Assembly (NCBI RefSeq): GCF_018350175.1
Contig: NC_058377.1
Location: 19,158,001 to 19,222,000 of the forward strand
From: Felis catus
Taxonomy: Eukaryota
Direction: 5' to 3'
Length of the DNA: 64,000 bases
Position 1 is the stretch's first letter, and each line of letters starts with the position of its first letter. Positions 2,055 to 55,566 of the stretch are shown here, one piece after another. The position numbers and the translations under genes are program-made. Below the pieces are notes generated by a model. That model saw only the letters and a program-made list of their open reading frames with translations, had not been told where the DNA came from and did not search any database.

Positions 2055-3983
2055 TTGACAGGATTACCTTGTATCTTTCTAGGGACCTCTATACTCAAGT
2101 GTATTTACATCTTCAAGAGTTGTCCACAGAAACCACCTTTTCCTAGATTCAGTGAGTTGTAAAGCCAAACAATTGGACTAGACTGGACCATATTTAAGGA
2201 GGAAGAACGTTGATTTTTTAAAAAAAAATTTCCTTGCAGAATGTTCTGGCCATGTCACTAGAGCAAGACCTCCTATGAACCTCTCTGAGCAATTGATCAG
2301 ATACTGCCTGCTGACCTCCGATGAGAGGAAGTCACACGGCAGCACAGCTTTGGATAACAACTTGTCTTACAGAAAGCGTTCAATAAAATGAAAGAAAGAA
2401 CAAACCTGGGTCAACAGCAAGAAGCCATTAAGACATGAAATAGACATTAGCAATTGGTTAGTTGATCAAAGAATAATCCGGTAGGATGGAAAACATCCTC
2501 CAAAGCAGTCTTTGGAAAGTTCTCTGATGCACAGTCTATTGAGCGGGGTTCCCTAGGGCCTGGTGTATATTAAGCTCCTTCCTTCATGTTATAAAAAACA
2601 GAAGAAATCTAGTCCACTGATCCTCTCAGCAGGCGCTCGATCGTTCTCTGGTAGAAATCCCTGAAACAGCGAGCAGAAAGGCGATCAAGAAAGGAAGTAA
2701 GGGATTTGTGAGAGGTCGAGGAAGATGAGGAGGCAAGAGGCTGGGAAAGGTCACAGTATCACCCCTATTGTGTGTTCTCCCTCCTTTTTTAGATCCTTCT
2801 TGGTGGTATGGTATAAAAACTTGACTGAGATAGGGATGTCAGGAACAGTCATCCCATCCTGGTTTCTCCTTGCTCTCAAAAGTGGCATGGTGGAAAGGAG
2901 AACTTCTTTTGGAGAAATGCCTTCTCTTTTCTTCAACTGAGCACGCAGCTCTGGGTGGGAGAGGACATCCACACAGTGAGTCACGGCAGGTGAGTGGGAC
3001 CCTGGTGGCCCCTGCATGGTGAAGCCGCACAGGAGTGGGGCCCCCCTGTCTGACAGGGAGCAGAAGGAGCTTTATCTCCAGCCTGGGAAACATCTTTGGA
3101 ACAATCCACTTTTTTTTTTTCTTTTTTCTTTTTCTTTTTTCCTCCGGTTTCTCATGTATAAAATAAAGGCAGCAACGCTTTTTACTTTTGGGGTTATTAC
3201 TGGGCTATGTCTTGCCCTTAAATTATTTCAAGCTTTCAGGAAGAAAAAGTCCTCACGCAGTACTTTCTTCACTCTCCAGGTCATGAGTTATTTACATGCT
3301 ACGTTTCCTGGCTCCTCCCCCTTCTCATCATCTACCATTGGGAATATTACTAAATAGGGTTTTCCTCTGATATCTCTTTTATACTCTTCAGAATTTTCTC
3401 ATAAAAACACCGGACTTGATGTCTGAAGAAGTGGGGAGTTAAATTCCCTTTTCTCCCACTTGCCACAGGACTTCGTATGCGTGACTTAGCCTCATTGACT
3501 GTCAATTTTCTCGTGTGCAAATTGGGGCAATGTAAGGAACTTTCAGGATTGTTGAGAGTCATAGGTGTGAAGGTACCAACCACCGGCAGTTAACTGACCA
3601 AAATTACTATGCAGAGCCATCAAAGCAAGAAGCCCTATTTAAGTTGGCTCTGTGATATCGTCTCTGATACCTCCTTGATTCTATGTTTGCTGACTCGCCC
3701 TGACTCAGACACGGCTTGGGTGGGAGGCTTGCGTGCCCTCCGCTGGTTAATGTCAGTCCCTCATCCTTTCTGATGGAATCTCTGTCATCTGTGTAATATC
3801 AACTCCCCTGTATAGGTAGTACTAAGGCTTATGATGGAGACAAAACTGAGACGCTCTGGGCAGAGTTAATTATTTGTTTCCTTTGCCTCAATACCATCTT
3901 AAACCTGCCTTTATTATAACATTTATACACTGACTCCTAATTATTTGTTTACCTGATCATCTCTCCCATGGGACCATATACTC

Positions 3984-5027: not shown

Positions 5028-5242
5028 ATTTAAACAATTTTTTTATGTTTATTTGTTTTTGAGAGAGAGAGAGAGAGCACAAGAAGGGGAGGGGCAGAAA
5101 CAGGGAGACACAGAATCCCAAGCAGGCTCCAGGCTTTGAGCTGTCAGCACAGAGCCTGATGCGGGGCTTGAACCCACAAACCATGAGGTCATGACCTGAA
5201 TCAAAGTCAGACGCTTCACTAACTGAGCCAACCAGGCACCCC
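5028..5242 (-). mobile_element. Can-SINE (SINEC_Fc type)
   Basis: Full SINE body; TSD TAGCTATCAACT at 5014-5025 and 5245-5256. Confidence 0.95.
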
Positions 5243-6740: not shown

Positions 6741-7010
6741 CTAATATGATGCCATCAGGGTAGGCCTTAATCCAACATGATTGATGTCATTATAAGAAGA
6801 GGAGATTAAGACATAGACATACACAGAGGGAAGAAAGACCTAGGAAGACACGGTGCCTACAAGCCCACGAGAGAGGCCTCAGAAGAAACAACCCCACTGA
6901 CACCATGATCTTGGATTCCTATTTTCCAGAATTGCGAGAAAATAAATATTTGTTGTTTAAGCCTCCCAATCTATGGTACTTTGTTATGGCAACCCTAGCA
7001 AACTAATACA
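6741..7010 (+). mobile_element. MaLR solo LTR (MLT1A-like), 5' part lost in gap
   Basis: Typical 3' end AATAAAT.TTTGTTGTTTAAGCC..CCA.TCTATGGTACTTTGTTATGGCA.CCCTAGCAAACTAATACA. Confidence 0.9.
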
Positions 7011-8089
7011 AGGAGGGTACCAAGCCCACTAGGTGGTAGACTTTTTGAGAAGGAAGCTTGTCTTACATGTCTTTGCATGTAATCATGTCACCTAACAGGG
7101 AGTCAACAATACAAAAAAATTACTCAATGGATTCTTGGTGTATAAAGGGGCAGATTTACTCTCTGGGTTAGCAGAAAGAAGAACTAAGAGCAATGAGTGG
7201 GGTGGCTAATGTGAACAACTGTGGTTCAGTTACGGAGTGGGTTCTTTGACAAGGCAGTAAGCTCTCTAGTCATTGGAAGTGTTCGTGTAGACACTGACGG
7301 ACGACCTGTGAGGGCTATTGCAGAAGAGACACCTGAACCGGGTAACAGGGGTCCTAGAAGATCCTGAAAATCTTTTCTGTGGAAAGGATTTGGACGTGGC
7401 AAAGAGCTTACTAAACACCCAGATCGTTATCCAGGCCTGATCTTCTTCTAGTAGCACCCGGGGATGGCCAAAGCCTATGATGCCCGTCTGTTACAGTCTT
7501 GACCCTCCGGAGGCCAGGGGGACTTCCATATCACTACTGATGTACGGCTTTTTAAGCGTCCTTGTGTGTAGTGTGTGAGCGAATCTATTCATGTAGGTCC
7601 AACGTTTCAAAAGGAAAAGGAAATGGACAACTATGAGCACACTTGATGGCATGACCTTGATATGGCAGCAGTAACGTCTATTTGGAATAAAATCTTCCAA
7701 CCCGTGAACTTGGGGGCGGTTGGCCTGAATACTGCCAGAGGGCATCTAAAAGGCACGGAGCATTGGCTCAAGCTTTCCTGTTATTAACTCTTATAGGCGG
7801 GATGGATGTTCCTGCTCTACGTTCTTTGGCGGATCTAGCCTCGAATATGGATAAAATGATGATTGCTTATCAGATGAGACTGGAGAAGAAGTGAAAATGG
7901 TTCCTCTTGCCTCTAAACATCTTCTTTGCCTAATCTGCCAGGAGCGTCATCAGAAATGACCTTTTACAAAAGGTATTGTCTCTATTAGAATGTAATCCTT
8001 TTATATGTACTGTCATTTTCTGTGTACTATGCTCTTTCACATGCCACCCGTGAACCTCCAGCCATCCGTGGCTTCTATTTCTGTGGATA

Positions 8090-8330: not shown

Positions 8331-9903
8331 CGATGGTCTTTGCTTCAACCCTATGATGAGATAGGTATCGTTGTTTTTACTTTGCCAACGAGTTTGTTAA
8401 ACTCAAGTGGTTTACCCCAAATTCACAGGCTGGGCGCTCAAAATGTCTCCTGATTCCAAATGTTTAGCTCTTTCCCCTCTGGATCACAGCTGTCTCTACT
8501 GGTAACATGAACCTGTGCTCTTTGGGACATTAATAATCTTGATGTGGGCCTTCTGGACAGGCTCACCCCCTTCTAACTTGGGATGCCTGTGCACACTGCT
8601 AAATTCCTTCTTCAGGAGATACTATCATGCAGGGTGGGATGGTTTCCTGAGAGTTCTCAACACAAACCTACTTGCAGTCGAGACTGATGCCAAGTTTGTT
8701 CGGCGAGACCACAGGTGTGTAGGGGGTGGGCGTTGCCTTCCTTGTGGATTTGGATCTGTTGTCTGCATAGATGCTGCCTGCTACATACTTAGGCCAATTA
8801 GAAATTAAAGCTTGGAAGTTAAGGATATATATGTAGGTGTGGGGATTCAGGAATGAGGAAGAGAGTGGGAGAAGAGGAGAGATGAGGTGGCACGGATCAT
8901 GGGCAAAAGAGTATGACAATCTGCCTAGGCCATGTGGCTGACAACCCGGCTGATGCTTGTTTTGACTTTTCTCTAACTGTACAACCGGTGCATGCAGATG
9001 ACTTTACATCTCATAGCAAAATGTGCGACAGCAACGTGCTAAGCAAATGCAAACAAAAATATGCTTCCCCCACTCCAAACAAATCTCTCACACGTCGCGA
9101 CGATGCCATGGCATGGCGAGAGACGGGAGACAGGGACGACCAGGAACCAGATTTGCTCATTGTGGAAACTACTCTCCAGGACCAGTAGACACGCACTGGC
9201 ACACCAGTGTCAGCCGTACCGGATTACTTGCTGTGATGTGGACACCGCGTGCACTTGGATTGCGCTCATCCGCGGAAGCATGGAAGCATCACCCATCCGA
9301 TTCGTTCAACGTTCGTTGTGCACCTGCTGTGACCCAGGCATGGCAGAGACAAGCCACATGCACATCCTGTCTTTTAGGAGCTCCTAGCTGCTCTGCGTTT
9401 GCCAGAGACACCGTGACATGCCCCTCAGCCTGGGATGTACTTGACTCTACTGTCTCCCTATGGAAATCCTGCCCGTTCCTTAAGGGCCAGCTTGGGAGCG
9501 TTTCCTTTCTCATCTTTCCCATTCCCCACCACGGTGGGAAGTAATCCTTGTCTCCAGTGCTCCTACAGCTCCGTGCTTGTCCTCCGAAGTGGCACAGGAG
9601 GGATGCAAAGCAAGTGCCTTCGGCCGCCATATCTCTCCTGCCTTGATTTTTCCCACCTCCCCACAGCTTAGAGGACCCGTTCTTCCCTCGTCGTGGGAAA
9701 ATTCTAACCGGAGAAAGTGTGTTGGTGGCCTCAACCTCATGAAAGGGAGACTCACCATTAAGTTTGTATTTTTGTTTTCTTTTTCTTTTTGCACTGAAAA
9801 TCTCTTTGGGTTCGAATACAGCTGCAGGGCTCCCGTGTGCCTTTCTCAGAACTTATTACTGAACTAGAATAGGGACAAGGAATTGTGCTACCTTCTCCTC
9901 CAG

Positions 9904-18288: not shown

Positions 18289-18799
18289 TCCAGGATGTTT
18301 TCTTGAGTGGGAGAGAAAGGAGTGGCTACAGGGAATTAGGGAATGTCTGAAGAGCACCCAGAGAGTGTGCTGTATATGGTAATTTATGTTAATGTCACGT
18401 GTGTCCCCCACGAAAAAAAATGTTCAGAGCAAGTATATTAGACAATGACCTTCAGTATAAACACAGGCGTGTCATGTATGCAATTCAAATGGAGTTTAGT
18501 TATTGTGAGATGAGAAAAGATGACATACGATATAGTCTTTCAGAAACCGAGTTTCACGATATATTCCTTGAGCCTGGCATCTGTTGTAGGATCCAAGAGA
18601 ACAGGTTGGATGCAAAGTAGTCTATTTATTTGTCCCATTATTATTTAATCTTAGTTGCTTTTATTAGGTCTATAGATATTCCAATTCCTTCATTTTGTCT
18701 CTGAGCAGTTCCTGGGATTGGTCATTAAGGGCTATAATAGAAATCATGGAAGTCAGGGGTAATGGGAATCAAAATTTGTTGAACACCTACTGCATGTTG

Positions 18800-18902: not shown

Positions 18903-19093
18903 NNNNNNNNNNNNNNNNNNNNNNNNNNNNNNNNNNNNNNNNNNNNNNNNNNNNNNNNNNNNNNNNNNNNNNNNNNNNNNNNNNNNNNNNNNNNNNNNNN
19001 NNNNNNNNNNNNNNNNNNNNNNNNNNNNNNNNNNNNNNNNNNNNNNNNNNNNNNNNNNNNNNNNNNNNNNNNNNNNNNNNNNNNNNNNNNNNN
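18903..19093. other. Assembly gap (191 N)
   Basis: N run. Confidence 0.99.
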
Positions 19094-19319
19094 ATCTCTG
19101 ATCTTAGTGTCAAGAGAGCTGAATCCAAAGCCCATGCTTCCCCTCTTGCTCATGGTGTGGTTCTCGCAAGTTCATTTCACCTGAGTCTCACTTTTGTCAA
19201 TTTTTTTTGACGGAGGCAACTGTGTGTTGGAATTATGGTGCAGAGTCAATGAAATCATGCAACCAAAGTCTTTGGACCAATGTCTGATGTATACAGCAGA
19301 TACTCAATAAATCCTGGGT
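19094..19319 (+). repeat. Inverted repeat left arm (MIR-derived)
   Basis: About 90% identical to the reverse complement of 21464-21690; MIR core-like GCAAGTTCATTTCACCTGAGTCTCACTTTTGTCA and 3' CTCAATAAAT. Confidence 0.92.
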
Positions 19320-19689
19320 ACGTATACATTATATATATGTGTATATAATGTATGTTTAATCCTCACAATGATTCTACAAGGGTTTGTCCCCATTGCGCAT
19401 CCTTCATTTGAAGGATTCTAAGACACAAAAAACCTTAAATAATTGCCCCTATAACATTAAACCTTGGGAGTAATTTGAATCCAGATCTTTTTGAATCTCC
19501 AAACCCTTGCTTCTTTCCTGACTGTGTGCCTTTTATGGGCTTGCCAGGCAAGGTAAGGTAGGAGGCATAAGTTCTCAGTGGTGCTCCAGGAGGATATAAG
19601 GGCAGGATTGGGTCCAGTCTAAAATGTGAAGTTCAGCCTAAATAATTAGGACCAAGTAGGGCTCATCCATGATAACGTCTAATGGTACG

Positions 19690-19770
19690 CAGAGGCCAAA
19701 CCATGTGAAATTGCCAACTTGACCATTTTTCATCTGTGAAGATGGAAACTTTATATGGTTCAATTTCATA
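19690..19770. mobile_element. MADE2-like mariner MITE (~80 bp)
   Basis: AACCATGTGAAATTGCC..TTGACCATTTTT...ACTTTATATGGTTCAA, matching the MADE2 inverted termini. Confidence 0.75.
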
Positions 19771-19781
19771 AAAGTAGGACA

Positions 19782-20010
19782 GGGGTGCCTGGGTGGCTCA
19801 GTCAGTTAAGCCTCTGACTTTGGCTAAGGTCATGATCTCGCGGTTCGTGGGTTTGAGCACTGTGTCGGGCTCTGGACTGATGGTGAAGAGCCTACCTGGG
19901 ATTCTCTCTCTCTCCCTCTCTCTCTCTGCTCCTCCCCTGCTCATGTGCGTGCTGACATGTGCTCGCTCTCTCTCTCTCTCTCTCTCACAATAAATAAACT
20001 TAAAAAAAAA
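19782..20010 (+). mobile_element. Can-SINE
   Basis: Head, (CT)n, tail; TSD-like AAAAGTAGGACA / AAAAATAGGATA. Confidence 0.95.
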
Positions 20011-20293
20011 ATAGGATAATCAGTGCTAAGCACACTTCATATGTTTTTCTCACACATGAGATTAAAATAAAAAATGTGGCTATTGAAATGGAAACAGAAG
20101 GGTCACTTTGATCCGGAAAGTGTGGCACCTACAAAGACAAGCTTCACATGATGAAAAGAAGAAGAGAGACGACTTCTAGCCCTCTAATGCCATCCCAGGC
20201 TCTAGAATATGAGGCACTGTCCCTCTGCCACAACTAAAATCTAAAGTCACTTGCCTGCATCCCTCTAGGCCCTGAGGAAGGCTAGTTACCTAC

Positions 20294-20694
20294 TGTTATG
20301 GTTGAGTCGTGTCCCCCTAAAAAACAAGTGTTGAAGTCCTCCTAACCCTTGATACTTCAGAATGTGACCTTATTTGGCAATAGGGCTGTTGCAAATGTAA
20401 TTAGTTAAGATGAATTCACGCTGGAGTGGAGTGGCCCCTTTGTCCAATATGACCAATGTTCTTGCAAAGAGAAGAGATACCTGGGGAGGAGAATGCCATG
20501 TGGCAAAGGCAGCAGAGACTGGAAAGAAGCACCTGCAAGCCAAGGGTTGTTGACAAACACCAGGAGCGAGGAGGGGCAAGGAAAGAAGGACCCTTCTCTA
20601 GAAGTTTCAGAGGGAGTACTGTCCTGCTGGCACCTTGATTTCAGATTTCTAGCGTCCAGAACTGGGAGACAAGAAATCTCTGTTGTTTTAGGCC
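20294..20694 (+). mobile_element. MaLR solo LTR (MLT1B/C-like)
   Basis: TGTTATGGTTGA.T.GTGTCCCC start; AATGTGACCTTATTTGG.AATAGGG; CACCTTGATTTCAGA...CCAGAACTG.GAGACAA. Confidence 0.9.
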
Positions 20695-20786
20695 CCGGGA
20701 AACCCACCTTTCGGGCTCTCTATTGACGCCCGTCTTCTGCTCTCAGTCACGATGATTAAGAAAATAAAATTGAAATAAAATTGTTA

Positions 20787-21010
20787 GCTGCGCCTGGGTG
20801 GCTCAGCCCGTTGGGCGGCTGACTTCAGCTCAGGTCATGATCTCCGGCTCCTGGGTTCAAGCCCCGCCCCTGGGTTCTGTGCTGGCAGCTCGGAGCCTGG
20901 AGCCTGCTTCGGATTCTGTGTCTCCCTGTCTCTCTGCCCCTCCCCTGCTCACATTCTGTCTCTCTCTGTCTCTCAAAAATAAATACGCATTAAAAATTTT
21001 TTAAAAAAGA
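20787..21010 (+). mobile_element. Can-SINE (SINEC_Fc)
   Basis: TSD AAATAAAATTGTT at 20773-20785 and 21011-21023. Confidence 0.95.
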
Positions 21011-21463
21011 AAATAAAATTGTTGCATAAAAAGGCAAATTCTAGATTTCAGACTGACTCATTTCTAGAATGTTCTGAAGAGCTTCATTTTTTTCTGAACC
21101 TTTAGTTTGGGAGCTACAGATGCAGACTGGTCTCTTCTTAGCAGGAGTTTTCATGCAATTTATGACAGTTAACCTACATGTTAGATTTCCTCTGAGCCTA
21201 AGTCACGGCATAATGAATTTTGGACAAATGGGCTGCCTTCCTGGTGACCACCAAGGTAAGGGATGTCGATGAGGTCTTCCCTGGCAGCTGTGATGGGCCC
21301 TCCCACCATCAGCAATTAATTTGAGTTATGTTCAATCGTCAGTGTTATGGGGGAGGCACAATATTTTATGCTATTATCACCATTGGTAACTAATCCGGGA
21401 TTCATTTATCAGGTTAGTCGATCATTAGCAGGACCCAGACACGAGCCGGCCACAAATAGATTC

Positions 21464-21690
21464 ACCCAGGATTTATTGAGTATCTGCCATATACATCAGA
21501 CATTGGTCCAAAGGCTTTGATTGCGTGATTTCATTGACTCTGCACCATAATTCCAACACACAGTTGTCTCCGTCAAAAAATGACAAAAGTGAGACTCAGA
21601 AAGGTAAAATGAACTGGCAAGGGTCACATTATGAGCAAGAGGGGAAACTTGAGCTTCGGATCCAGTTCTCCTGACACTAAGATCAGAGAT
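21464..21690 (-). repeat. Inverted repeat right arm (MIR-derived)
   Basis: Reverse complement aligns to 19094-19319 with 21 substitutions and 2 small indels (hand alignment). Confidence 0.92.
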
Positions 21691-21799
21691 GGGGACGACA
21701 GGGGGAACGGCTCCCATGAGGTGCCACACTGGGAGGATCTGGGAAAATGCAGGACCACCGAGAATAGCAGGGAGCAGGAATTCGTACTCAAAAACTGTC

Positions 21800-22620
21800 A
21801 GGGCAAGAGATAACAAGTGTGGCCAGGACGTGGACGAAAAGGAACCTTCGTGCGCCAGTGGCGGGAATGTAAATTGGTGCAGCCACTGTGGAAAACGGTA
21901 TGGAATTTTCTCAAAATTGCAAATAGAATGACCATGTGATCAGTAATTCCAGTACTGGGTATTTACCCAGGAAAAAAAAAAACCCAAAAATACGAATTTG
22001 AAAAGATCCATACAGCCCTATGTTTATTGCAGCATGATTTACAATAGCCAAGATGGGGAAGCAAGCCCAAGTGTCCATCGATAGATGAACGGGTAAATCA
22101 GGTGTGATACACACACAATGGAATATTATTCAGTCATAAAGAAGAATGAGATCGTGCCCTTCGTGACAACATGGATGAACCCAAAGGGTGTTATGCCAAG
22201 CAACAGAAGTCAGAGAAAGACGAATGTATTTCACTTCTGTGTGGAATCTAAAAAACAAAGCAAGTGAACAAGCCAACAAACCAGAAACGGACCATAAGTA
22301 CAGAGAACAGACACACTTGCCAGAGGGGAGAGGGTGGGGGGGGGGATGGGCAGAATGGGGTAATGGGAGAGGGCAATCCAGGCTTCCGGTAATGGAATGC
22401 ATACGTCACGGGGACGAAAGGCACGGCACAGGGAATACAGTCAATGGTATCGTAAGAGCTTTGTGTGGTGACAGATGGTGGCGACACTGTGGCGAGCAGA
22501 GCATAACATATAGGCTTGTCGGATCACTATGTTGTACATCTGAAACGAATTGTGTGTCAACTCTACTCCAATTCCAAAAAGAGAAAGAAAAAAAAAAAAA
22601 ACAACGAAAAACAAAGACCA
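21800..22620 (+). mobile_element. 5'-truncated L1 (carnivore L1_Carn/L1MA9-like), ORF2 end plus 3' UTR plus A-tail
   Basis: GGAATGTAAATTGGTGCAGCCACTGTGGAAAAC; G-rich 3' UTR tract; ATCACTATGTTGTACA.CTGAAAC; A-rich tail. Confidence 0.92.
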
Positions 22621-22639: not shown

Positions 22640-22900
22640 GGAAGAGCCCTAGAGTAGACCTCCCCAGGCTGTGGTTGTCGAGGTCTGAACTTGGACTCCG
22701 AGATCTGTTGTTCAGCTCTATCATCTGCTGGCTTTTTGGGTCCGTGGGCTACAAACGGAATCTCCCTGAGCCTCAATGTCCTAGACTATGGTATTGAACT
22801 AACTGTACCTTCCTCCTTGGGCCGTTCTCAGATTTGCCCGTGACGATGCAGGGACAATTGTGTAGCAGGCATTAGGCAGTCAGTAAAACGTGGCTGTGTT
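22640..22900 (+). mobile_element. MIR SINE (degenerate)
   Basis: CTCCCTGAGCCTCAATGTCC core; 3' AGGCAGTCAGTAAA. Confidence 0.6.
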
Positions 22901-36954: not shown

Positions 36955-37290
36955 CACACACACACACAAGCACACATACAATATTACCTCTCTCTCTTAT
37001 ATATATATAAATATATATATATACAATATATACACATATTTATGTATAATAATATAAATGTATAATATAATGTATATATGTATAATGTGTAATATAATGT
37101 ATAATTGATATTATGTATAATATAAGAATATAAATATATACAAATATGTATATAAATATATACACACATATATACACATATTCTTGTATAGCCACATATA
37201 TGAAATATATATGCATATTTATATATGTGTGCATGGGTATACCTGTGAGACGTGTTTTACATATATCTACATATATATATAATTTATATG
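36955..37290. repeat. (CA)/(TA)-rich low-complexity tract
   Basis: Direct reading. Confidence 0.95.
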
Positions 37291-53862: not shown

Positions 53863-55566
53863 AGTATATTCACTCACCACAATAGAAAGAAGTTGGTCAC
53901 CAATAGCATAAATTTGGTAAATCCACCTGTGTGGAAATTAAATAACACCCACATAAATAACTAGTGAGTCAAAGAAGAAATTACAAATAAAATTAGAAAA
54001 TATTTTGAGATAAATGAAAGTGAAAACACAATCGGACCCAAACCTACAGGATGCAGCTAATGCAGTTACCAGAGGAAAATTGGTAGTTCCAAAACATATT
54101 ATAAAAGAAAAAAGATCTCAAATAAATAAACTAAACTTCTACCATAAACAAACTAGTAAGAGTAGAACAAATTAAATTCAAAAGAAGCAGAAAGAAGAAA
54201 ATTATAAAATTGTAGCAGAAATTAATAAAATAGGGAATAGAAACAATAAATAAATGAACCAATGGAGGTTCTTTGAAAAGGTCAACAAAGTGAGATATGG
54301 TAACCATGAAAAAAAGAGATTCAAATTACTAAAGTTGGAGAAGACATTATTAATCTTGTATATTTATATTATATATTACATAAATTATTTTTATTATTTG
54401 TATATTGTATATTATATTATAAATTATAGAAATATATAATTTATATGTTATAAATTATATGACATGAATCATATATATTTACATATTAGTATATATACAA
54501 GATTATTAGAATAATATCTTATATCATATATCAACATAGATGAAACCTAGATAGCATATATGATAAGGAAAAATACGTAGAGAGACACAAACTGCTAATA
54601 CTAGCTTAAGACAAAATTAAAAATCTGAATAGATCTATAATAAGTAGAGATTAAATTAGTCATAAAAATGTTTCCCTAAAGAAAAGCCCAGATCTAGATG
54701 TCTTCATTAGAGAATTCTACCAAACATTAAAAAAGAATTAAGATCAAACTTTCTTAAACTCTTCCAAAAATAATAGAAGAGAGGGGAACACTTTCCATTT
54801 GATGAATCCAATATTACTGTGAAATCAAAAGCAAAAAAGACATTACAAGAAAAAAAATACGGACACCAATGTCCGTTATAAATATAGAGACAAAAATTCC
54901 ACAGTGACATACTAGCAAACTGAATCTAACAGCCTATAAAAAGGATTATACACTATAACCAACAGGAATTTATCCCTGGTATAGGTTGAACCAACCTATA
55001 AAAGTCAATCAATGTCACTATATCCATAGAATAAATGGGAGGGGGGGAGCATATAATAATCTCAATCAATGCAGAAAATATATTCGAAAAAATTGAACAT
55101 ATTGTCATGACAAATACATAAATCAAACTGAAAATATAAGAGAACTTCCTCAGACTGATAAAAGGCATCAGTGGAAAACATACAACTAACACATACTTAA
55201 TGGTGAAAGACTGAAAGATTTTACCCCAAAGATCAAGAGCAAGATAAGAATCTCTACTCTTAGCACTTCTATTCAACATTTCCTGAAGGTTCTAGCCCGG
55301 GAAATTGGGTAAGAAAATGAAATAAAAGTCATTCAGGTTGTAAAGGAAAAAGTAAATTATTTTTATTTGCAGATGACACGATCTTGTGTATAGAAAGTCT
55401 TACAGAATCCAGAAGTGATTTATTGGCCTTACTAAACAAATTCAGGATACAAAGTTTATACAAAATCAATATATAATATACAATACACAATCAATATATA
55501 AAATTTAGTTGCATTTTTACTCATTTGTAGTGAACAATCTGAAAATGAAATTAAGAAAACAATTTA

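What the first reader, a model, noticed from the sequence alone, without database searches (positions are those of the whole stretch)
19094..21690. Homogenised inverted MIR pair flanking a 2.1 kb potentially invertible cassette
Seen: 19094-19319 aligns to the reverse complement of 21464-21690 with 21 substitutions (19 transitions) and 2 small indels over ~225 bp, about 90% identity. The inner ~135 bp has only 6 substitutions (~95%); the outer part is ~82%. The arms share long strings that are not MIR consensus (e.g. CAACTGTGTGTTGGAATTATGGTGCAGAGTCAATGAAATCA, CTTTGGACCAATGTCTGATGTATA). Established: MIRs stopped amplifying in early mammalian evolution, and independent copies are far more divergent than this. 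Inference: either a local inverted duplication of an already decayed MIR, or repeated gene conversion between two inverted MIRs; the identity gradient fits conversion tracts of different ages. Such arms can flip the 2144-bp spacer (MADE2, two SINEs, MLT1 LTR, and unique AT-rich sequence at 21300-21430) or form a long dsRNA stem if transcribed. The left arm abuts an N-gap, so the repeat may be longer.
Basis: partly seen in the sequence, partly recalled or inferred. Interest (0 to 1): 0.72.

Follow-up and report, generated by a model that had tools for sequence, protein, structure and literature searches.

The report
Inverted DNA copy pasted into TA repeat
A 243-base piece of an old MIR repeat and its flanks sits as a back-to-front second copy 2.1 kb away, inside a TA-rich tract that splits another old repeat, and is likely an ordinary scar of one DNA repair or copying error rather than a flipping cassette kept alike by gene conversion.

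Summary
The full arms are 19077-19319 and 21464-21707 (24 substitutions in 240 columns), with only two matches in the genome.

The N stretch is not an assembly gap. The genome copy reads a TA-rich tract there, and the arm extends only 17 bases into it.

The left arm has TA-rich sequence on both sides and splits an older, opposite-strand MIR into two collinear halves. The arms share a 5' truncation, 61 non-consensus bases and non-MIR flank. This fits a one-off repair-mediated duplication (Pace et al. 2009) with the right arm as donor, roughly 25 My old. It does not fit two independent MIRs homogenised by conversion.

The spacer is in its ancestral orientation. The identity gradient is borderline (p 0.01 raw, 0.05 with adjacent changes merged), so one later conversion tract is not excluded.

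In 1.86 Mb there are 9 other low-copy local duplications and 51 other inverted pairs as good. One lead: a second inverted copy inside a TA tract lies 98 kb away. No cross-species or RNA data could be obtained. Ordinary.

The parts
18770..18798 (-). 3' piece of the host MIR-like element that the insertion splits (profile positions 229-257)
   Evidence: weak alone (E 0.58); joins the 5' piece into one collinear hit of 18.6 bits against 12.8; 19 of 2000 random flanks reach that score
18800..19076 (.). Degenerate TA-rich tract left of the insert (277 nt, 95% AT); partly N in the window, read in genome locus L002
19077..19319 (+). Left arm, the inserted (acceptor) copy, 243 nt: 5'-truncated MIR (profile 45-253) plus flanks; lacks 4 nt that the right arm keeps
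19320..19356 (.). Short TA-rich tract right of the insert (81% AT, 20 TA/AT steps in 37 nt; 44 of 20000 random 37-mers reach this)
19354..19489 (-). 5' piece of the host MIR-like element (profile positions 50-193)
   Evidence: E 1.4e-4
19320..21463 (.). 2144-nt spacer, inferred to be in ancestral orientation relative to the left flank
19686..19775 (.).
   Evidence: hairpin, -21.1 kcal/mol, no shuffle control
19780..20015 (+). High-copy SINE in the spacer (carnivore tRNA-derived SINE by recall)
20290..20690 (+).
   Evidence: read only
20756..21020 (+). Second high-copy SINE in the spacer
21464..21707 (-). Right arm, the inferred donor: 5'-truncated MIR (profile 43-253) with non-TA flanks on both sides

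Best explanation
The left arm is a 243-base inverted copy of the right arm that sits in a TA-rich tract splitting an older MIR, and it was likely pasted there once, roughly 25 million years ago, when a broken or stalled DNA end at that tract briefly copied nearby sequence; since then both copies have likely decayed without function. Shown: the arms, the TA-rich sequence on both sides of the left arm only, the collinear halves of the host MIR, and two matches in the genome. Inferred: the direction (right arm donor, left arm acceptor), a break or fork stall at the TA tract, strand invasion or template switch at a few bases of homology about 2 kb away on the opposite strand, synthesis of about 240 nt, and re-joining. 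SDSA-type repair, polymerase-theta end joining and an intrastrand template switch cannot be told apart here. The age uses K2P 0.11 and the 2.2e-9 per year rate that Pace et al. use for primates, so it is uncertain by up to twofold.
For: (1) Host MIR halves flank the left arm in the same orientation and order: profile 50-193 at 19489-19354 and 229-257 at 18798-18770. Joining the flanks gives one hit over profile 51-257, 18.6 bits against 12.8; 19 of 2000 random flanks reach the score, 12 of 2000 with a junction-spanning hit. (2) TA-rich sequence lies on both sides of the left arm; the right arm's flanks hold 3 and 2 TA/AT steps per 37 nt against 20. (3) The arms share 61 non-consensus bases, the same 5' truncation and non-MIR flank. 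(4) Private changes occur on both arms: 8 left, 10 right, 6 both; 10 left, 6 right, 8 unresolved. (5) Two matches in the genome; no poly(A) at either end of the insert. (6) Size and distance fit Pace et al. 2009 (PMC2671141): proximal acceptors average 162 bp, maximum 619, and 753 of 1,136 duplicons lie under 3 kb apart; 192 repair-mediated duplications were counted in dog. (7) The class is common here: 9 other low-copy spaced pairs in 1.864 Mb; the five that were checked each have 2 genome matches. (8) TA repeats are break hot spots whose repair favours short templated duplications in cancer-cell ecDNA (PMC13645644, abstract and section 10).
Against: Substitutions are uneven: 17 of 24 lie in the outer 92 columns (81.5% against 95.3%), permutation p 0.0075-0.0095, or 0.052 when adjacent changes count as one event. 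The five other alignments of spaced pairs tested show no such gradient (p 0.34-0.94). 22 of 24 changes are transitions (binomial p 0.005 at 0.67, 0.11 at 0.8), which is unexplained. The 3' host piece is weak alone (E 0.58). No outgroup empty site could be seen. Junction microhomology is at most 1-2 nt and cannot be judged after this much decay.
Confidence: 0.75

Rival explanations
1. The same duplication, but older (outer part about 18% diverged), followed by one later gene-conversion tract that reset the inner 150 bases to about 95% identity.
For: Gradient of 81.5% against 95.3%, permutation p about 0.01; a tract of this length is typical for mammals (passage in PMC3961182).
Against: p rises to 0.052 when adjacent changes are merged. 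The outer excess leans to the left arm (8 left-derived, 3 right-derived, 6 unresolved), as local mutability beside the TA tract or error-prone synthesis would give, and the outer part is richer in G+C (51% against 40%). The longest identical run, 41 nt, is unremarkable (p 0.24).
Confidence: 0.17
2. Two independently inserted inverted MIRs were homogenised by repeated gene conversion and flip the spacer.
For: Both arms are MIR-like and about 90% alike, against 49% for independent pairs; the gradient.
Against: Homology extends beyond the MIR on both sides, both arms share a truncation point, the left arm is nested in a TA tract in another MIR, and the spacer keeps its ancestral orientation. None of 2798 other MIR pairs exceeds 67%. 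Identity of 90% is far below the more than 99% of conversion-maintained palindromes (PMC8981503, start of abstract).
Confidence: 0.03
3. The spacer was inverted once by staggered breaks, which left an inverted duplication at the two breakpoints.
For: This process gives the same layout of inverted duplicates around a segment (PMC1885836 seen as search listing only; mechanism recalled).
Against: It predicts that the left flank once joined the far end of the spacer. That join gives no extension of the MIR hit (1.0 bit, profile 230-258), while the simple-insertion join gives 18.6 bits over profile 51-257.
Confidence: 0.03
4. Assembly artefact at a gap edge.
For: The window shows N beside the left arm.
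Against: The genome locus reads through without N; the arms differ at 24 sites and 2 indels with private changes on both; 1.8 Mb of flanks hold no N.
Confidence: 0.01

Closest known systems
Repair-mediated duplication (RD), Pace, Sen, Batzer and Feschotte 2009, PMC2671141 (abstract, parts 1-5 of 7 of the main text and passages read; supplements not seen)
   Same: Insert of 50-619 bp that interrupts a transposable element, one donor elsewhere, donor within 5 kb, no poly(A) tail; opposite orientation occurs (their ACSBG2 case); they note that such pairs may promote inversion or deletion of the spacer; 192 counted in dog.
   Different: The donor here is itself a decayed MIR. The acceptor site is a TA tract; the word 'microsatellite' does not occur in that paper's main text. 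No outgroup empty site was seen.
Template-switch mutation, four-point model type 1-4-3-2 / 3-2-1-4 (Loytynoja and Goldman 2017, PMC5453318; abstract and passages read)
   Same: A reverse-complement copy of nearby sequence is inserted and creates an inverted repeat without inverting the spacer.
   Different: Described for short events near the mutation cluster; a 243-nt copy from 2.1 kb away is larger (their size limits were not seen in the passages read).
TA-repeat fragile sites repaired by polymerase-theta end joining (PMC13645644; abstract and section 10 read)
   Same: Breaks at TA-rich loci, with small (under 5 kb) templated duplications enriched there.
   Different: Somatic, extrachromosomal DNA in cancer cells; here an old chromosomal event in the genome assembly.
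Conversion-maintained inverted repeats with recurrent inversion, e.g. HsInv0389 and X palindromes (PMC3961182 passages; PMC8981503 start of abstract)
   Same: Inverted arms around a spacer.
   Different: Palindrome arms there are over 99% identical, and the inversion breakpoints lie in high-identity stretches of repeats up to kilobases long. These arms are 0.24 kb and 90% identical, with no sign of a flip.

Membership tests
Repair-mediated duplication (Pace 2009) | Insert splits a transposable element into two pieces of the same family and orientation | tested here: met
   profile built from local copies; 3' piece weak alone, join p about 0.01
Repair-mediated duplication (Pace 2009) | The two pieces meet within 30 consensus positions | tested here: inconclusive
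   separate hits end at 193 and start at 229 (36 apart); in the joined alignment TA-rich bases fill part of this and 17 columns are missing
Repair-mediated duplication (Pace 2009) | Insert at least 50 bp (observed maximum 619) | tested here: met
   243 bp
Repair-mediated duplication (Pace 2009) | Found at only one other place in the genome | tested here: met
   2 matches, (the search skips very common words)
Repair-mediated duplication (Pace 2009) | Donor 50 bp to 5 kb away | tested here: met
   2144 bp
Repair-mediated duplication (Pace 2009) | No poly(A/T) tail of retrotransposition | tested here: met
   both ends of the insert match the donor and run straight into TA-rich sequence; a target-site duplication cannot be judged inside a TA tract
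Repair-mediated duplication (Pace 2009) | Microhomology, filler or small deletion at the junctions | tested here: inconclusive
   1-2 nt at most by eye; host element lacks about 17 columns; too old to resolve
Repair-mediated duplication (Pace 2009) | Empty orthologous site in an outgroup | not testable with these tools
   no related eukaryote genome is held; the run search listed none
Conversion-maintained inverted repeat with recurrent inversion | Very high arm identity (over 99% in X palindromes) | tested here: not met
   90%, longest identical run 41 nt
Conversion-maintained inverted repeat with recurrent inversion | Arms group by species; both spacer orientations exist | not testable with these tools
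   no cross-species or population data; the orientation here is ancestral
Staggered-break inversion | Spacer inverted relative to the ancestral order | tested here: not met
Four-point template switch 1-4-3-2 | Inserted fragment is a reverse-complement copy of nearby sequence, spacer not inverted | tested here: met
Four-point template switch 1-4-3-2 | Switch points lie within one replication fork, close in sequence | tested here: inconclusive
   2.1 kb today, about 1.65 kb if both spacer SINEs are younger (inferred)
Segmental duplication | Longer than 1 kb at over 90% identity (definition quoted in PMC2671141) | tested here: not met
   243 bp

The most novel reading that the evidence does not exclude
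TA tracts that grow inside old retroposons are germline sinks that capture inverted copies of nearby DNA, seeding of the order of a thousand local inverted repeats per mammalian genome: a fixed, datable germline record of the TA-repeat fragility known from cancer cells. In 1.864 Mb, 2 of 3 inverted low-copy pairs sit inside TA tracts against 0 of 7 direct pairs. Leaving out this finding, 1 of 9 events does, against about 0.01 expected (108 of 200,000 random intervals, 18 copies). This is a post hoc test resting on one independent case from one chromosome.
Probability: 0.35. Interest if true: 0.42.

Novelty: new member of a known kind. Interest (0 to 1): 0.17.

Why it matters
The locus itself matters little. 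It is a neutral-looking scar of a described class, in a window where none of the 140 longest low-repeat open frames (of 326) matched Pfam, and it is no better an inversion or double-stranded-RNA substrate than dozens of SINE pairs nearby. Its value is as a clean example with known donor, acceptor and insertion site. With the second case 98 kb away, it suggests a cheap genome-wide test of whether TA repeats are preferred germline landing sites for inverted templated insertions.

Tried and rejected
Sequencing-run search with window 19094-21780, DNA runs, library word PACBIO: none was listed. That is no evidence either way; it leaves cross-species presence, orientation, polymorphism and transcription untested.

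Young repeat or low-copy family: rejected; 2 genome matches, no Rfam match in the region (the only hit in the window is tRNA-like at 5153-5237).

Single-copy seeds against 264 kb gave almost no other MIR hits; a usable profile needed 1 Mb.

Selection for an RNA stem: on a + strand transcript 12 changes give wobble pairs and 10 give mismatches, and duplex energies are equal on the two strands (-388.6 and -389.3), against -297 to -427 for three SINE pairs in the window; no support.

Gene context: 0 of 140 frames matched Pfam (140 of 326 submitted); no CpG island at my thresholds in the window or the 500 kb to its right, the nearest 157 kb to the left. An intronic position is not excluded.

Staggered-break inversion: rejected.

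Literature: (MIR elements, gene conversion, inverted, concerted evolution) listed 1 unrelated paper; (TA repeats, templated insertion, germline and others, 4 of 5 terms) listed none; two searches listed 7 and 12 papers, none with a title or abstract start on germline capture at TA tracts. These searches are narrow and no supplements were read; Table S1 of PMC2671141 may hold orientation and site data that bear on the novel case.

Earlier-findings look-ups by place returned nothing.

Full report
Observation. Alignment of 19094-19319 with the reverse complement of 21464-21690 gives 223 columns, 21 substitutions (19 transitions), indels of 4 and 3 nt and 90.6% identity; 2144 nt separate the arms. 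A search of the window's own genome, 2.43 Gb in 71 contigs, returns these two places only. The abundant SINE pairs point to a carnivore; that label is recalled.

The N stretch. The window holds nine N stretches, while 1.8 Mb of fetched sequence from the same chromosome holds none, so they are not assembly gaps. Locus L002, returned by the genome search, reads through: a TA-rich tract, then 17 further bases that match the right arm with three C/T differences. The full arms are 19077-19319 and 21464-21707: 240 columns, 24 substitutions, 22 transitions, K2P 0.11 +/- 0.02.

Are they MIRs, and how alike should MIRs be? No repeat library was available, so I built a profile from 40 flank copies, without the arms, by iterating from a seed search. 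It finds 185 hits in 1 Mb, and its consensus looks like MIR by recall. Both arms match it (profile 45-253 and 43-253) at 61-62% identity to the consensus, like ordinary copies (mean 64% over the 100 hits with at least 120 columns). Independent copies are 48.7% alike on average, 66.9% at most over 2798 pairs. The arms share 61 departures from the consensus. They therefore descend from one already decayed copy.

Which arm is the copy. The same profile finds a third element on the minus strand in two pieces around the left arm: positions 50-193 at 19489-19354 (E 1.4e-4) and 229-257 at 18798-18770 (E 0.58, weak alone). Between them lie a 277-nt tract of 95% AT, the left arm, and a 37-nt TA-rich tract. 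Joining the two flanks gives one hit over positions 51-257 at 18.6 bits, against 12.8 for the right piece alone; 19 of 2000 random flanks reach that score, 12 of them with a junction-spanning hit. The short tract has 20 TA/AT steps, reached by 44 of 20,000 random 37-mers, while the right arm's flanks have 3 and 2. The right arm keeps 4 nt that the left lacks, and the arms share about 30 nt outside the MIR-alignable part at the outer end and 7 nt at the inner end. The left arm is thus an insert in a TA tract inside an older MIR, and the right arm is the inferred donor.

Orientation of the spacer. The host MIR's 5' piece lies inside the spacer and its 3' piece outside, and they are collinear. 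The spacer therefore has its ancestral orientation, or has flipped an even number of times. A staggered-break inversion predicts that the left flank joined the far end of the spacer; that join gives no extension (1.0 bit). As a substrate for inversion or RNA pairing the pair is not special. In 1.864 Mb there are 52 inverted pairs of at least 200 bp and 87.5% within 5 kb, this one included, most of SINE size. The duplex energy (-389 kcal/mol) lies within the range of three SINE pairs in the window, -297 to -427. Wobble and mismatch changes are balanced, 12 to 10.

The gradient, which tells against a purely uniform decay. 17 of 24 substitutions lie in the outer 92 columns (81.5% against 95.3%), permutation p 0.0075-0.0095; merging adjacent changes gives p 0.052. 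The outer excess leans to the left arm (8 left-derived, 3 right-derived, 6 unresolved) and the outer part is richer in G+C. The five other alignments of spaced pairs tested show no gradient. One later conversion tract remains possible (about 0.17) and cannot be tested without other species. The transition excess is unexplained.

How common. Comparing each 10-kb piece with itself and its neighbour over 1.864 Mb, and removing sequences with matches more than 30 kb away, gave 9 low-copy rows of 12 candidates at 80 bp or more and 10 of 12 at 35 bp or more. I merged two rows split by a piece boundary and dropped one tandem pair (L109) and one minisatellite-like pair (L030:9132). The L030:6228 pair appears only. 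The union is 10 events: 7 direct and 3 inverted, this one included. Four direct pairs of 150-250 bp, 83-89% alike and 1.2-3.4 kb apart each have exactly two genome matches. One direct row (L068) flanks a SINE and may be a long target-site duplication. This is about five events per Mb on this chromosome.

What is known. Pace et al. 2009 (PMC2671141; abstract, parts 1-5 of 7 and passages read) define repair-mediated duplications in just this way: a transposable element interrupted by at least 50 bp that occurs at one other place, with the donor usually within 5 kb. Proximal acceptors average 162 bp (maximum 619), lack poly(A), and number 824 in human and 192 in dog. Five of eight features tested as met, two are inconclusive (consensus gap of 36 against their limit of 30; junction signatures), and the outgroup empty site could not be tested. 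They cite Thomas et al.'s 'doublets' as the same class (not read by me). Four-point template switches of type 1-4-3-2 give the same geometry at short range (PMC5453318, abstract and passages). TA repeats are break hot spots with small templated duplications in cancer-cell ecDNA (PMC13645644, abstract and section 10). At the 2.2e-9 rate used by Pace et al. the event is 25 +/- 5 My old; the true lineage rate is not known here.

A lead. Of 99 TA tracts in 1.8 Mb of flanks, 6 neighbouring pairs are split by 50-650 nt; 3 of the inserts had no other match, 2 were repeats and 1 was an inverted local copy. That insert, L018:3178-3247, matches L018:3859-3790 at 96% over 70 bp, 542 bp away, has two genome matches, and sits in a TA tract inside what reads as an L1 3' end (label recalled). 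The low-copy scan, which does not use TA content, recovers it. Random intervals have TA tracts at both ends in 108 of 200,000 draws, so one case among 18 other copies has p about 0.01, post hoc. Searches listed no paper on this germline pattern by title or abstract start, but they were narrow.

Not obtained. The run search listed none, so there are no data on other species, polymorphism, transcription or editing. None of 140 submitted frames (of 326) matched Pfam.

Verdict. Real, explained and ordinary: a new member of the repair-mediated duplication class. Interest 0.17. The TA-tract lead would deserve about 0.42 if a genome-wide test bore it out.

Noticed in passing
L018:3178-3247 and L018:3790-3859 (G000:C21:19275178 and 19275790): Second inverted local copy (70 bp, 96%, 542 bp apart, two genome matches) embedded in a TA tract inside an L1-like 3' end; donor lies on the same side as in the finding.
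   Followed up: partly
L096:9381-9533 / L097:854-1001; L030:6228-6399 / 7637-7808; L119:3247-3401 / 6851-7012; L156:9888-L157:138 / L157:2224-2477: Four direct two-copy local duplications, 150-250 bp, 83-89% alike, 1.2-3.4 kb apart; no TA tract seen in their flanks.
   Followed up: partly
L068:3528-3613 / 3841-3926: An 86-bp, 99% identical direct repeat flanks a SINE: an unusually long target-site-like duplication.
   Followed up: no
L172:854-905 / 1977-2027; L041:6807-6847 / 7939-7980; L071:149-190 / 1132-1173: Short low-copy local pairs of 42-52 bp about 1 kb apart (one inverted, two direct).
   Followed up: no
L109:5444-5730: Young 144-bp tandem duplication, 99% identical.
   Followed up: no
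L084:6752-6967 / 8391-8606: Inverted pair of 216 bp at 99% identity, 1.4 kb apart, of SINE size; a far better inversion substrate than the finding.
   Followed up: no
window 36998-37174 and 54348-54460: Other degenerate TA-rich tracts; no low-copy local insert was found beside them.
   Followed up: partly
window 22713-22891 (+): Another MIR-like copy right of an L1-like fragment (about 21780-22600; label recalled), unrelated to the arms.
   Followed up: no
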